Assembly: GCF_030013595.1 (NCBI RefSeq)
Contig: NZ_CP122768.1
DNA length: 64,000 nucleotides
Reading direction: 5' to 3' (one strand)
Source of the DNA: Escherichia coli
GTDB lineage: Bacteria > Pseudomonadota > Gammaproteobacteria > Enterobacterales > Enterobacteriaceae
Shown: in pieces, positions 9,001-15,000 of the stretch
Position numbering within the stretch: the stretch's first letter is position 1
Layout of the letters: the number at the start of each line of letters is the position of its first letter
Made by a program: the position numbers

Positions 9001-12000
9001 TAACGGTATTATTAAATTTTCCTCTTCTGCAGCGCGGATAAAAACTACCGGAGATATATTTTTACCATCTTCGCGTTGCCAGCGCATTAACGCTTCAACC
9101 CCCAGACACGCTTTGGTTGTCGTGTCGCACACTGGTTGATAATGCACAGAAAATTCTCCGGATGACATTCCTTTTTTAATTTCTTCTGCCAGCGACATTT
9201 TCCGTGACATCCAGTGCTGCCATAAGAAATAGAGAATAAAAGAAAGAATAATAGATAACGGCAAAATATAAAGCACATTGCTAATGATATAGGGATATAA
9301 CGAAATCATCGGCGTAGTAACTGTAAGACGAGCCTGACTGATCGCAGAATTAAAATCTCTTTTTAACATATATAACCTGTCATTATTATTTACACCACTA
9401 ATAATTGCAGGCCCTTCAGTAAAACGAAGAGAAAATGAATCATCATTCTCATCATCAAGAACATCCATTAGATCATAGATATATCGTGACTCTACAATAC
9501 TAAAAGCTGTCATATCATTCCCTATTGGCATAAGGAACACTATTGCTGTTTTACCTGGCACAAAACTTGTACCGCTAATTGATACTATACGTGATTCTTT
9601 ATTTTTATTGTGAAAGCTCGTACCGTAAACATCGTTAACATTCATTTTTTTGAAACCGCTAACTGAAGAACATATTTGGAAATTATTTTCTATAAGACCC
9701 GTTGTTCGAACATAGGGAGTCAATGCTCCGTTAACAATCAATTGTTCCAGGATATCTTTGCAGGGTTTCATCACCAGAATAGAAGTAAGCTTTGTCGTAT
9801 GTTTGACAATTTGCGTAACATTATCAAGCTGTTTTAACAGAATACCGGCGGTAATTGTCGTATCTCGATTCATTTGAAATATTGACATAGCAAACGATAG
9901 TAACACCCCCAGAATGCCTGGTATTATAATGAGTACAAACATTTTTTTGTTGAATACCATACATGTTTCCCCACGCATCAGGGTGATGCAACCTAAGAAA
10001 TTATAGTACAATTGCCAGTAAAAGCGGGTGATAGCAGACTGATCAATGATAAGCATTTAAGATCATATAGTACTATGATATTTCTGAAAATTGTTACGCA
10101 TGTCTGCGAATAGCTATTTAGCGCTTACCAAAATCACCCGCTAAAATGCCGCTTTATGGTGACTCACAAAAATTCACCACATCCCTCACAACCACCTTAT
10201 TACGCCCGGTCTCTTTCGCCTCGTATAGTGCGTTATCAGCCAGTCGATAGATCTCATTCGGGTTTAACGCATTTTCCTGAGTCACAACAGCGCCAATACT
10301 AATCGTCACTTTTTGTGGTATGGCGTATTCAGGATTATCACCAGTTAAACGCTCAACATTTTCCCGAATCCTTTCCGCTAAAGCTTTCGCACGTTCAGTA
10401 TCGATGTCCGTCAGCAAGACGCCAAACTCTTCGCCGCCGACGCGCGCAAAAAGGTCATCTGGCCGTATGCTTTTCCCAATGATACTCACCACTGTTTTTA
10501 TCACCTGATCGCCAACCGGATGCCCCCAGGTGTCGTTGACTTTTTTGAAGTGGTCGATATCCATAATCATGACGCAATAAGGCGTTTTTTTGGCCGATGC
10601 TGATTGAACTGTCAGTTCATTAAAAAAATAATTTCTGTTAAATATATTGGTTAAGGAATCGCGATGTGCAATGTCCTTTGTTACTCGTAGCGCACTGAAT
10701 ATATGGCACATAAATATTACCATAACGGTTAACTTACTGACTACTTCAATAGTGCGACTAATATACCAAATGGACAGGCTATACCTGCTCATAAATAAAA
10801 GAGAGACATTGTACAGTACGGCACAAAAAGCAATCACCGTCACTCCATTCCAGATATCACAGCGTAAACCATTAAAGTATAGATTAACTGAAAGCAAGGT
10901 TAACCACATGAAAATCATTATGGTAACATATGATGTTTTCCAAACCACCTGATCATTTTCATTGGTTAACTCGGCAATGTGTAAATTGTAGCTCTCATAA
11001 TGACTAGAAAGTATGTGAGCAACTATCGGCCCCCCAACAACAAAAAACAAACTTATGCACAAAGTCATTTTTTTGGAAAATAAATTGCGCTGTTTTGTGT
11101 TTTCACTAACTTTATTCACCAATGCCAGAAATATTAATATGCACAAACTCATCTGACGAAACAAATAATAGATTGCAATGTCATTTTGAACAACACTGCT
11201 TGTCAAACGCCCCTCAATAATTTGCTGAATGATAATGACGGTTTTAACAAAGTAAATCAAACAACTCAGAAAAGCCAAACTAAGTATACAGTTTGAAAAT
11301 TGCCTACGGTCATAAATGAAATACAACTGCATAAAAATAAATGCAACAGTATCGATAAAAAATAAAGCAATCATTACCATCAGATAGGTTGATCGTGGAA
11401 CAACTTCCTCAACGCCTGGCTGATTAAACCAACTATTCACCAAAACCAAAGCAAGCCCAAACAATAAGCTCACTAATACAGTACTACTAATTCTCAAATA
11501 GTCTTTTTCCATAAAGCTACACCAATCTGTAGGTTGTAGATCCCTTTCTATTATTAATAGATATAAGAACTGTACTGTTGTCAATATGAAATTCCGCCCA
11601 CAAACAATACCGATGATGATAGTTGCAGACCGCAATTATTATTGCCTTAGTGCTTTATACATTCTTCGCGACAAGACAGGCTTGCAAATACATATAAATG
11701 GTTATAAGGAAATCCTTATAAAACATTAATTCATAGATATATTAGGAATAACAATTGAATCCGTGAGTACAGTAACGCTGCATTTCATCAGGACTTTCGA
11801 AAAATCCGATATCATGCATCGGAATTTACTGATTTAATTATTTTAATCCTAATTTATTTTGAAAAAGGCATTGGGATTTATGCCGTATTCCTGAAGTTCC
11901 TCATCATTGGAATGGATTTTCAGGCGAGAAAAGGATTTTATATGGATACTCTACTCATCATTTCTTCTTCTCATCATCAACAATTCACGTCTCTCTTCCG

Positions 12001-15000
12001 CGTTTAATAACGGATTATGATGTGCAAAAAAAATATCTTTCGTTTCAGTTACCTGTAATTAGATACAGAGAGAGATTTTAGCAATACATGGAGTAATACA
12101 GGATGTATTCAAGTAGCAGAAAAAGGTGCCCGAAAACCAAATGGGCTTTGAAAATTCTTACTGCCGCATTTTTAGCAGCGAGTCCCGCGGCGAAGAGTGC
12201 TGCTAATAATGCCTATGATGCATTGATTATCGAAGCTCGCAAGGGAAATACTCAGCCAGCTTTGTTATGGTTTACACAAAAATCAGCACTCAGTAATAAC
12301 CAAATTGCTGACTGGTTACAGATTGCCTTATGGGCCGGGCAAGATAAACAGGTTATTACCGTTTACAACCGCTACCGTCATCAGCAATTACCAGCGCGTA
12401 GTTATGCAGCTGTCGCCGTCGCTTATCGTAACCTGCAACAATGGCAAAACTCGCTTACACTGTGGCAAAAGGCACTCTCTCTGGAGTCGCAAAATAAGGA
12501 TTATCAACGGGGACAAATTTTAACCCTGGCAGATGCGGGTCACTATGATTCTGCGCTGGTTAAACTTAAGCAGCTTAACTCTGGAGCACCGGACAAAGCT
12601 AATTTACTCGCAGAAGCCTATATCTATAAACTGGCGGGGCGGCATGAGGATGAATTACGGGCGATGACAGGGTCATTACCTGAAAATGCCTTAACGCAAC
12701 AATATCCCACAGAATACGTGCAGGCATTACGGAATAATCAACTTGCTGCCGCGATTGACGATGCCAATTTAACGCCAGATATTCGCGCTGATATTCATGC
12801 CGAACTGGTCAGACTGTCGTTTATGCCTACGCGCAGTGAAAGTGAACGTTATGCCATTGCCGATCGGGCCCTCGCCCAATACGCTGCATTAGAAATTCTG
12901 TGGCATGATAACCCTGACCGCACTGCCCAGTACCAGCGTATTCAGGTTGATCATCTTGGCGCGTTATTAACTCGCGATCGTTATAAAGACGTTATTTCTC
13001 ACTATCAGCGTTTAAAAAAGACGGGGCAAATTATTCCGCCCTGGGCGCAATATTGGGTTGCGTCGGCTTATCTCAAAGAACATCAGCCAAAAAAAGCACA
13101 GTCAATAATGACAGAGCTCTTTTATCACAAGGAGACCATTGTCCCGGATTTATCCGATGAAGAACTTGCGGATCTCTTTTACAGCCACCTGGAGAGTGAA
13201 AATTATCCCGGCGCGCTAACTGTCACCCAACATACCATTAATACTTCGCCGCCTTTCCTTCGGTTAATGGGCACGCCTACGAGCATCCCGAATGATACCT
13301 GGTTACAGGGGCATTCGTTTCTCTCAACCGTAGCAAAATATAGTAATGATCTTCCTCAGGCTGAAATGACAGCCAGAGAGCTTGCTTATAACGCACCAGG
13401 AAATCAGGGACTGCGCATTGATTACGCGAGTGTGTTACAAGCCCGCGGTTGGCCTCGTGCGGCAGAAAATGAATTAAAAAAAGCAGAAGTGATCGAGCCA
13501 CGTAATATTAATCTGGAGGTTGAACAAGCCTGGACAGCATTAACGTTACAAGAATGGCAGCAGGCAGCGGTCTTAACGCACGATGTTGTCGAACGTGAAC
13601 CGCAAGATCCCGGCGTTGTACGTTTAAAACGTGCGGTTGATGTACATAATCTTGCAGAGCTTCGTATCGCTGGCTCAACAGGAATTGATGCCGAAGGTCC
13701 GGATAGTGGCAAACATGATGTCGACTTAACCACCATCGTTTATTCACCACCGCTGAATGATAACTGGCGCGGTTTTGCTGGATTCGGTTATGCCGATGGA
13801 CAATTTAGCGAAGGAAAAGGGATTATTCGCGACTGGCTTGCGGGTGTTGAGTGGCGGTCACGTAATATCTGGCTTGAGGCGGAGTACACCGAACGCTTTT
13901 TCAATCATGAGCATAAACCCGGCGCGCGCCTGTCTGGCTGGTATGATTTTAATGATAACTGGCGTATTGGTTCGCAACTGGAACGCCTCTCTCACCGCGT
14001 TCCATTACGGGCAATGAAAAATGGTGTTACAGGCAACAGTGCACAGGCTTATGTTCGCTGGTATCAAAATGAGCGGCGTAAGTACGGTGTCTCTTGGGCT
14101 TTCACTGATTTTTCTGACAGTAATCAGCGTCATGAAGTCTCACTTGAGGGTCAGGAACGCATCTGGTCTTCACCATATTTGATTGTCGATTTCCTCCCCA
14201 ATCTGTATTACGAACAAAATACAGAACACGACACCCCATACTACAACCCTATAAAAATGTTCGATATTGTTCCGGCATTTGAGGCAAGTCATTTGTTATG
14301 GCGAAGCTATGAAAATAGCTGGGAGCAAATCTTCAGCGCAGGTGTTGGTGCCTCCTGGCAAAAACATTATGGCACGGATGTCGTCACCCAACTCGGCTAC
14401 GGGCAACGCATTAGCTGGAATGACGTGATTGATGCTGGCGCAACGCTACGCTGGGAAAAACGACCTTATGACGGTGACAGAGAACACAACTTATACGTTG
14501 AATTCGATATGACATTCAGATTTTAAGGATAAATATGTTACGTAATGGAAATAAATATCTCCTGATGCTGGTGAGTATTATTATGCTCACTGCGTGCATT
14601 AGCCAGTCAAGAACATCATTTATACCGCCACAGGATCGCGAATCTTTACTCGCCGAGCAACCGTGGCCGCATAATGGTTTTGTGGCGATTTCATGGCATA
14701 ACGTTGAAGACGAAGCTGCCGACCAGCGTTTTATGTCAGTGCGGACATCAGCACTGCGTGAACAATTTGCCTGGCTGCGCGAGAACGGTTATCAACCGGT
14801 CAGTATTGCTCAAATTCGTGAAGCACATCGAGGAGGAAAACCGCTACCGGAAAAAGCAGTAGTGCTGACTTTTGATGACGGCTACCAGAGTTTTTATACC
14901 CGCGTCTTCCCAATTCTTCAGGCCTTCCAGTGGCCTGCTGTATGGGCCCCCGTCGGCAGTTGGGTCGATACGCCAGCGGATGAACAAGTAAAATTTGGCG

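What the first reader, a model, noticed from the sequence alone, without database searches (positions are those of the whole stretch)
11869..12105. pgaA leader with GGA motifs over the ribosome binding site, upstream of a disrupted operon
The pgaA leader is retained, with GGA motifs at the Shine-Dalgarno (CATGGAG) and at the start codon (CAGGATG), which are known CsrA sites. Post-transcriptional control of pga therefore appears intact, although the operon itself is broken by IS10 in pgaB. This may indicate a recent insertion rather than long-term decay.
Basis: partly seen in the sequence, partly recalled or inferred. Interest (0 to 1): 0.25.

Follow-up and report, generated by a model that had tools for sequence, protein, structure and literature searches.

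The report
Known pgaA leader; IS10-broken pgaB
This is the well-studied untranslated leader of the E. coli biofilm-polysaccharide operon pgaABCD, with its CsrA-binding GGA motifs intact, in a strain where one IS10 element has recently split the second gene, pgaB; it is ordinary and already explained.

Summary
pgaA starts at 12103. CATGGAG (12087-12093) and CAGGATG (12099-12105) are present and identical to K-12. The K-12 234-nt leader maps to window 11866-12102. All eight GGA triplets of the K-12 leader sit at homologous positions. This density is rare: 0.6% of 240-nt windows in this sequence reach it. The leader is a natural minority allele, 95.8% identical to K-12 and 100% identical to pig isolate HCP5S3_I2. 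Two of its changes (+82 C>U, +88 G>A) fall in the published CsrA/Rho attenuator hairpin and modestly weaken its predicted upper stem.

IS10 (15644-16972, 1329 bp) has a perfect 9-bp duplication, GGTCTGGTT, and cuts pgaB after codon 370, inside the C-terminal GHL13 domain. With IS10 removed, pgaB, pgaC and pgaD are 100% identical in nucleotides to the nearest relative. pgaA, pgaC and pgaD are full length. None of 5,426 complete E. coli genomes has this junction.

The "recent insertion, regulation retained" reading is therefore supported. A laboratory or cloning-host origin for the insertion cannot be excluded. Everything here is known biology, so interest is low.

The parts
10154..11512 (-). 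dgcT (ycdT) diguanylate cyclase gene, divergent from pgaA, intact (452 codons plus stop)
   Evidence: Same length as K-12 b1025, no internal stops, 1 nt different from HCP5S3_I2
11866..12102 (+). pgaA 5' untranslated leader (237 nt; homologue of the 234-nt K-12 leader). The +1 is placed by homology only.
   Evidence: Alignment to K-12; 234-nt UTR from PMC4052769; 95.8% identical to K-12 and 100% to HCP5S3_I2
11867..11884 (+). Predicted 5'-terminal stem-loop GGCAU-UGGGAUUU-AUGCC with GGGA in the loop
   Evidence: Predicted in both the window and K-12 folds. It is not described as a CsrA site in the papers read.
11926..11972 (+). Homologue of the +61..+107 attenuator hairpin. The left arm (11926-11946) carries the two 5'-proximal CsrA GGA (11933, 11944). 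The right arm (11947-11972) is the 5' half of rut. Variants U at 11947 (+82) and A at 11953 (+88).
   Evidence: Coordinates from PMC4052769; folds. The lower stem is kept (pair probability 0.96). Upper-stem pair probability falls from about 0.75 to about 0.3.
11947..12005 (+). C-rich, G-poor rut-like tract (C 20, G 3, 15 YC dimers in 59 nt)
   Evidence: same YC count as K-12; C minus G lies in the top 0.2% of the window
12087..12093 (+). CATGGAG: Shine-Dalgarno with GGA (published CsrA site over the SD)
   Evidence: invariant in 10 alleles; site assignment
12099..12105 (+). CAGGATG: GGA overlapping the pgaA start codon (published CsrA site over the AUG)
   Evidence: site assignment
12103..14526 (+). 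pgaA, PNAG export porin, intact (807 aa)
   Evidence: NCBIfam NF007468 1441 bits; Pfam PgaA_barrel; 2 nt different from HCP5S3_I2
14535..15647 (+). pgaB 5' fragment. Native sequence runs to 15643. Codon 370 is completed and the stop TGA supplied by the first bases of IS10, giving PgaB 1-370.
   Evidence: Pfam Polysacc_deac_1 at 102-270 and only the first 53 of 324 positions of GHL13
15635..15643 (.). Left copy of the 9-bp target-site duplication GGTCTGGTT
15644..16972 (+). IS10 (1329 bp). The outside end CTGATGAATCCCC... faces the pgaB 5' part and the inside end ...GGGGATCTCTCAG faces the 3' part. Same orientation as the operon.
   Evidence: 100% identical to copies in other E. coli genomes (annotated there as IS4-like element ISVsa5 family), and 2098 records at >=99%
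15751..16959 (+). IS10 transposase gene, intact (402 aa), ATG at IS10 position 108
   Evidence: Pfam DDE_Tnp_1, NCBIfam IS4 family transposase
16973..16981 (.). Right copy of the 9-bp target-site duplication GGTCTGGTT
16982..17891 (+). pgaB 3' fragment (codons 371-672, rest of the GHL13 domain). An ORF from an ATG at 16956 inside IS10 reads into it in frame.
17884..19209 (+). pgaC, PNAG synthase, intact (441 aa)
   Evidence: TIGR03937 648 bits; 0 nt different from HCP5S3_I2
19211..19624 (+). pgaD, intact (137 aa)
   Evidence: NF011180 298 bits; 0 nt different from HCP5S3_I2

Best explanation
Window 11866-12102 is the 5' untranslated leader of the E. coli pgaABCD mRNA, in a natural minority allele. 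By homology it should work as in K-12. CsrA dimers bind GGA motifs over the Shine-Dalgarno and the start codon and block ribosome binding. CsrA also binds the two GGA in the left arm of a marginally stable hairpin (+61..+107), which frees a C-rich rut tract so that Rho terminates within the leader. Downstream, one canonical IS10 transposed into codon 370 of pgaB with a 9-bp duplication. This leaves PgaA and a PgaB 1-370 stub under CsrA control. It destroys the C-terminal GHL13 domain that PNAG export needs, and it probably reduces pgaC/pgaD expression by polarity. The strain is therefore predicted to be PNAG-negative. The insertion is evolutionarily young and strain-specific. Shown here: the sequence anatomy, homology, motif retention, IS10 boundaries, lack of decay, and absence of the junction elsewhere. 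Inferred: CsrA and Rho action in this allele, polarity, and the phenotype.
For: Identity of the locus: the order dgcT-leader-pgaA-pgaB-pgaC-pgaD matches K-12 and HCP5S3_I2, and the protein families match.

Leader:
- 95.8% identical to K-12 and 100% to HCP5S3_I2; 266 genomes are >=99% identical.
- All 8 GGA lie at homologous positions, and GGA is enriched.
- The last ~33 nt are invariant in 10 alleles down to 78% overall identity.
- The rut tract is retained.

Mechanism from the literature: six CsrA sites in the 234-nt UTR, two of them over the SD and AUG; a hairpin at 61-107 whose left arm holds the 5'-proximal site pair and whose right arm holds rut (PMC4052769; PMC7652899).

IS10:
- 1329 bp, correct ends, 9-bp duplication, intact 402-aa transposase.
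- 100% identical to other copies.

Youth of the insertion:
- The restored pgaB, pgaC and pgaD are nucleotide-identical to the nearest relative.
- The window has no private substitution anywhere in the intergenic region or the four pga genes.
- The junction is found in 0 of 5,426 genomes.

The PgaB C-terminal domain is 'critical for export' (PMC5933820).
Against: - Nothing contradicts the identification.
- Function was not measured. The transcription start, CsrA binding and Rho termination are all extrapolated from K-12.
- The allele differs from K-12 at +32, +57, +82, +88, +156, +174 and +212, and has a 3-nt insertion.
- The +82/+88 changes lower the predicted upper-stem pairing of a hairpin that the literature calls finely tuned, so the regulatory set-point may differ.
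- Zero private substitutions in about 6.8 kb bounds the age of the insertion only loosely.
- The hairpin segment does not fold better than shuffled sequence (z = -0.2 to -0.5), so the structure rests on the published experiments, not on my folding.
Confidence: 0.9

Rival explanations
1. The IS10 insertion is not a feature of the natural population. It arose during laboratory passage or in an IS10-carrying E. coli cloning host, or it is a minority variant fixed in the sequenced clone.
For: The junction is unique among 5,426 complete genomes, including the two 99.9%-identical relatives. There is zero divergence in the disrupted gene and a perfect duplication. Two nearby 1-nt homopolymer deletions relative to the closest relative hint either at sequencing or consensus imperfections or at relaxed selection. 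From my own knowledge, IS10 hopping in laboratory hosts is a recognised source of such insertions.
Against: Nothing in the window distinguishes this from a natural recent event. IS10 is common in wild E. coli: 1,967 of 5,426 genomes carry matches. The source and sequencing method of the window are unknown.
Confidence: 0.15
2. Old pseudogenisation: the pga operon has long been inactive in this lineage and is decaying, with the leader retained only by chance.
For: About 21% of complete E. coli genomes lack the leader and pgaA 5' region altogether, so the locus is dispensable. Two neighbouring genes carry frameshifts relative to the closest relative.
Against: pgaA, pgaC and pgaD are full length. 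The restored pgaB/C/D are 100% nucleotide-identical to an intact relative. The window has no private substitutions in the leader or pga genes. The duplication is perfect and the IS10 is intact and canonical.
Confidence: 0.03
3. The leader is retained in sequence but its allele is functionally different. The U82/A88 haplotype weakens the upper attenuator stem, so rut is more exposed and basal Rho termination is higher (lower pga expression) than in K-12, independently of the IS10 event.
For: The energy of the K-12 structure on the window sequence rises from -6.4 to -4.9 kcal/mol, and upper-stem pair probabilities fall from 0.74-0.79 to 0.29-0.32. Published mutants that destabilise the upper hairpin bind CsrA better and lower expression, and the hairpin is described as having 'borderline stability'. 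The haplotype recurs in three sampled strains, and 266 genomes are >=99% identical to the window leader.
Against: The ensemble free energy changes by only 0.33 kcal/mol and the lower stem, where CsrA nucleates, is unchanged. The predictions are thermodynamic only. The two changes are 6 nt apart on one haplotype, so their co-occurrence is a single event and not evidence of selection. C-G to U-A at the predicted apex pair gives only 0.3-0.4 kcal/mol of compensation over the single mutants.
Confidence: 0.2

Closest known systems
E. coli K-12 pgaABCD 5' UTR (CsrA translational repression, Wang et al. 2005; CsrA-induced Rho-dependent attenuation, Figueroa-Bossi et al. 2014, PMC4052769)
   Same: Orthologous position between dgcT and pgaA; 95.8% identity; all eight GGA; identical SD/start block; identical left arm of the hairpin; the same rut tract.
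   Different: Seven SNPs and a 3-nt longer A-run. +82 C>U and +88 G>A lie in the hairpin apex and right arm, giving a weaker predicted upper stem. Function in this allele is untested.
IS10 (IS10-Right of Tn10; IS4 family; annotated by PGAP as ISVsa5 family)
   Same: 1329 bp, canonical outside and inside ends, 9-bp target duplication, 402-aa DDE transposase starting at element position 108, 100% identical to many other copies.
   Different: The target GGTCTGGTT is a poor match to the preferred NGCTNAGCN hotspot (consensus from my own knowledge). This particular insertion site was not found elsewhere.
Other natural IS disruptions of the pga locus in E. coli (for example IS1 in the dgcT-pgaA intergenic region of strain TOE51)
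   Same: Strain-specific IS insertion in the same dispensable locus (hit H19).
   Different: Different element and site. That one lies in the regulatory region, while this one lies in the pgaB coding sequence. The TOE51 case was seen only in the hit table and not examined further.

Membership tests
pgaA 5' UTR (CsrA/Rho-regulated leader of pgaABCD) | Lies directly upstream of pgaA, divergent from dgcT, and is homologous along its full length to the K-12 234-nt leader | tested here: met
   same synteny; 95.8% identity over 240 nt
pgaA 5' UTR (CsrA/Rho-regulated leader of pgaABCD) | GGA-containing CsrA sites overlapping the Shine-Dalgarno and the initiation codon | tested here: met
   CATGGAG at 12087-12093 and CAGGATG at 12099-12105, identical to K-12 and invariant in 10 alleles; site definition
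pgaA 5' UTR (CsrA/Rho-regulated leader of pgaABCD) | Two 5'-proximal GGA sites in the left arm (+61..+81) of the hairpin | tested here: met
   Window 11926-11946 is identical to K-12 +61..+81, with GGA at +68 and +79
pgaA 5' UTR (CsrA/Rho-regulated leader of pgaABCD) | Marginally stable hairpin +61..+107 that sequesters the 5' half of rut | tested here: inconclusive
   The lower stem is predicted with probability 0.96, but the upper stem is weakened by +82/+88. MFE is -6.0 versus -6.4 kcal/mol, and neither is better than shuffles.
pgaA 5' UTR (CsrA/Rho-regulated leader of pgaABCD) | C-rich, G-poor rut tract downstream of the left arm | tested here: met
   C 20, G 3 and 15 YC dimers in +82..+140, the same count as K-12
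pgaA 5' UTR (CsrA/Rho-regulated leader of pgaABCD) | Actual CsrA binding, translational repression, Rho termination, and a transcription start at +1 | not testable with these tools
   Needs gel shift or toeprint, reporter fusions and 5' RACE
pgaA 5' UTR (CsrA/Rho-regulated leader of pgaABCD) | A curated RNA family match | tested here: not met
   No Rfam family matches the leader. The only hit, at E = 0.34, is a plant miRNA model far below its gathering score. Rfam appears to have no model for this leader, so this does not count against membership.
IS10 / IS4-family insertion | 1329-bp element with canonical terminal sequences and a 9-bp direct target duplication | tested here: met
   15644-16972; GGTCTGGTT on both sides
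IS10 / IS4-family insertion | Intact DDE transposase of 402 aa | tested here: met
   PF01609 and NF033591; full ORF
IS10 / IS4-family insertion | Simple insertion into an otherwise colinear gene (the empty site reconstitutes the wild-type sequence) | tested here: met
   Removing IS10 and one repeat copy gives a 2019-nt pgaB identical to that of HCP5S3_I2

The most novel reading that the evidence does not exclude
The minority leader haplotype carried here (U82/A88 in the attenuator hairpin, a longer A-run, and other changes; about 6% of pga-positive complete genomes are >=99% identical to it) is a natural set-point variant of the CsrA/Rho attenuator. It would shift basal pga expression between E. 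coli lineages. The more divergent 78% allele, which has lost the lower stem and two GGA, would then regulate pga by translational repression alone.
Probability: 0.15. Interest if true: 0.3.

Novelty: already known. Interest (0 to 1): 0.08.

Why it matters
It matters little beyond annotation. The window's strain should be annotated with pgaB as an IS10-disrupted pseudogene and predicted to be deficient in PNAG export and PNAG-dependent biofilm, while the regulatory leader, pgaA, pgaC and pgaD remain intact. The case is a clean example of a very young IS knockout in a dispensable biofilm locus. The only mildly useful lead is that natural E. coli alleles vary within a hairpin that experiments describe as finely tuned. 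That gives ready-made variants for testing the CsrA/Rho attenuation model.

Tried and rejected
- Rfam scan of 11000-13000 at E<=1: no relevant family.
- Generic sigma-70 scan: no convincing promoter on the + strand upstream of 11866, as might be expected for an activator-dependent promoter. The two terminator-like hits on the minus strand are just the reverse complements of leader and intergenic hairpins.
- Exact 22-mer scan of 100,044 species-representative genomes for the SD/start block: only one E. coli record and a 382-bp contaminant contig, so no cross-species comparison of the leader was possible.
- Covariation support for the hairpin: the +82/+88 pair change is a single linked haplotype, and the compensation is energetically small. 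I rejected it as evidence of selection on the structure.
- Coding constraint on the leader uORF (AUG at +77, or +47): +82 and +88 are synonymous in it. In the 78% allele, however, I counted by eye about 6 nonsynonymous and 3 synonymous nucleotide changes, which is close to neutral. The published AUG mutation also had no effect. Rejected.
- Split-PgaB rescue through the 311-aa ORF that starts inside IS10: it would lack the N-terminal signal or lipoprotein sequence and the first ~50 positions of GHL13. Rejected as functional.
- The primary papers of Wang 2005, Goller 2006 and Itoh 2008 are not held. The exact coordinates of CsrA sites III and IV and of the NhaR sites could therefore not be mapped.
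Full report
**Observation**

CATGGAG lies at 12087-12093 and CAGGATG at 12099-12105. The ATG at 12103 opens an 807-aa ORF (12103..14526). That ORF is PgaA (NCBIfam NF007468 1441 bits; Pfam PgaA_barrel). Upstream on the other strand is dgcT (10154..11512), as in K-12 MG1655 and in the closest complete genome, pig isolate HCP5S3_I2.

The K-12 pgaABCD leader is 234 nt and holds six CsrA sites. Two of them cover the Shine-Dalgarno and the AUG (PMC4052769; PMC7652899). Aligning the intergenic region with K-12 places K-12 +1 at window 11866. The window allele has three extra A in an A-run (12026-12028), so its leader is 237 nt. This +1 is inferred by homology only.

**Is it more than chance?**

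- The leader plus start codon holds eight GGA. Dinucleotide shuffles give 4.3 +/- 1.4 (p about 0.014). The window-wide mean is 2.7 per 240 nt, and only 0.56% of sliding windows reach eight.
- A GGA in an SD is trivial by itself. The stronger evidence is conservation. In ten E. coli alleles (100% to 78% identity to the window leader), the last ~33 nt, including both motifs, are invariant.
- All eight GGA of K-12 are at homologous positions in the window.

**The allele**

The leader is not the K-12 sequence.

- It differs at K-12 positions +32, +57, +82, +88, +156, +174 and +212, and by the 3-nt insertion.
- It is 95.8% identical to K-12 and 100% identical to HCP5S3_I2. Among 4,250 genomes with a match, 266 are >=99% identical.
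- About 21% of the 5,426 complete genomes have no match at all, so the locus is dispensable.

Figueroa-Bossi et al. showed that +61..+107 forms a marginally stable hairpin. Its left arm (61-81) carries the two 5'-proximal CsrA sites. Its right arm (82-107) is the 5' half of a rut site. CsrA binding opens the hairpin and triggers Rho termination.

In the window:

- The left arm (11926-11946) is identical to K-12.
- The rut tract is retained: C 20, G 3 and 15 YC dimers in +82..+140.
- +82 C>U and +88 G>A convert a predicted apex C-G pair to U-A. The energy of the K-12 structure rises from -6.4 to -4.9 kcal/mol, and upper-stem pair probabilities fall from about 0.75 to about 0.3.
- The lower stem (probability 0.96) and the ensemble energy (-7.77 versus -7.44 kcal/mol) hardly change.

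Published upper-stem destabilising mutants lowered expression. A modest change of set-point is therefore conceivable, but it is only inferred. The two changes travel on one haplotype, so they are not independent evidence of covariation.

**The broken operon**

IS10 occupies 15644-16972 (1329 bp).

- Its outside end, CTGATGAATCCCCTAATGATTTTGG, abuts the pgaB 5' part.
- Its inside end, GGGGATCTCTCAG, abuts the 3' part.
- The 9-bp repeat GGTCTGGTT lies at 15635-15643 and 16973-16981.
- The transposase (402 aa, 15751..16959) is intact.
- It is the only IS10 outside end in the window. The element is 100% identical to copies in other E. coli, with 2,098 records at >=99%.

The insertion follows codon 370 of pgaB. 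The first bases of IS10 complete a Phe codon and supply TGA, so the product is PgaB 1-370. Pfam places the deacetylase domain at 102-270 and the C-terminal GHL13 domain from 318. The cut falls about 50 positions into GHL13. That domain is described as critical for PNAG export (PMC5933820).

The transposase ATG is at element position 108, as in canonical IS10. From my own knowledge, pOUT reads toward the outside end. Here that means antisense into pgaB' and pgaA, not into pgaC. I therefore infer polarity on pgaCD rather than IS-driven expression.

**Age of the insertion**

- Removing IS10 and one repeat copy gives a 2019-nt pgaB. This pgaB, pgaC and pgaD are each 100% nucleotide-identical to HCP5S3_I2.
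- pgaA differs from HCP5S3_I2 at two positions. At both, the window agrees with K-12, so the changes are private to the relative.
- The single intergenic difference is likewise private to the relative.
- pgaA, pgaC and pgaD are full length.
- A 240-nt probe across the left junction found no genome among 5,426 with >=80% coverage.
- Only two genomes are 99.9% identical to the window over a further 24 kb, and the next best are <=98.8%. HCP5S3_I2 carries an annotated full-length pgaB; its near-twin LCP30S3_I5 also lacks the junction.

The insertion is young and strain-specific. Two limits apply:

- Zero private changes in about 6.8 kb bounds the age only loosely.
- A laboratory or cloning-host origin cannot be excluded from the sequence.

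**Comparison with what is known**

This is a member of the known pgaA leader, a natural allele with the defining motifs met. The downstream event is a canonical IS10 insertion. Rfam has no matching family, which reflects curation, not absence. No paper in the searched library links IS10 with E. coli pgaB, but a strain-specific IS knockout is not a new kind of thing.

**Verdict**

The biology is already known and interest is low. The least ordinary residue is natural variation inside an experimentally "finely tuned" attenuator hairpin, including a 78% allele that lacks the lower stem and two GGA yet keeps the SD/start block.

Noticed in passing
window 4545 and 5911: Two 1-nt deletions in homopolymer runs (C5>C4, T8>T7) relative to the 99.93%-identical relative HCP5S3_I2. 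They frameshift a fimbrial protein gene (3395..4597, 400 aa instead of 444) and split an SDR oxidoreductase gene (5560..6350). They could be real slippage mutations or consensus errors.
   Followed up: partly
window 16956-17891: The IS10 inside end carries an ATG that overlaps the transposase stop (ATGA). It reads outward in frame into the pgaB 3' part, giving a 311-aa ORF (MRGSLR + PgaB 368-672). The product would lack a signal sequence, so it is unlikely to be functional.
   Followed up: partly
window 11912-12007 (and the internal AUG at 11942): A small upstream ORF lies in the leader (31 aa, or 21 aa from the AUG at +77). The +82 and +88 variants are both synonymous in it. The ORF is kept in the 78% allele, but its substitutions look near-neutral. 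Published mutation of the AUG had no effect.
   Followed up: partly
L010 (E. coli CUVET18-1475), leader region 401-635: About 76 complete E. coli genomes fall in the 60-80% identity band for the leader. In the one example examined (77.9% identical), the lower hairpin stem and the GGA at +79 and +147 are lost, but the last ~33 nt are identical.
   Followed up: partly
hit H19, E. coli TOE51 (NZ_CP069090.1 3007255-3008633); also H3 and H4: An IS1 family transposase is annotated within the stretch matching the dgcT-pgaA intergenic/leader query, which spans about 780 bp extra. Two other strains show about 26-31 extra bp there. These are independent natural disruptions of the same locus.
   Followed up: no
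L012 (NZ_JUET01000049.1, 382 bp, 'Tannerella forsythia ATCC 43037'): This whole contig is K-12-type pgaA promoter, leader and first codons. It is almost certainly E. coli DNA contamination in that assembly.
   Followed up: yes
window 10777 (dgcT codon 246): The window has Leu where both K-12 and HCP5S3_I2 have Val. This is the only window-private coding change seen in the dgcT-pga region.
   Followed up: no
window 22000-46000: The closest relative, HCP5S3_I2, matches this 24-kb stretch in two pieces spanning 66 bp less than the query, while more distant genomes match in one piece. There is a small indel difference somewhere in the put/rut/tor region.
   Followed up: no
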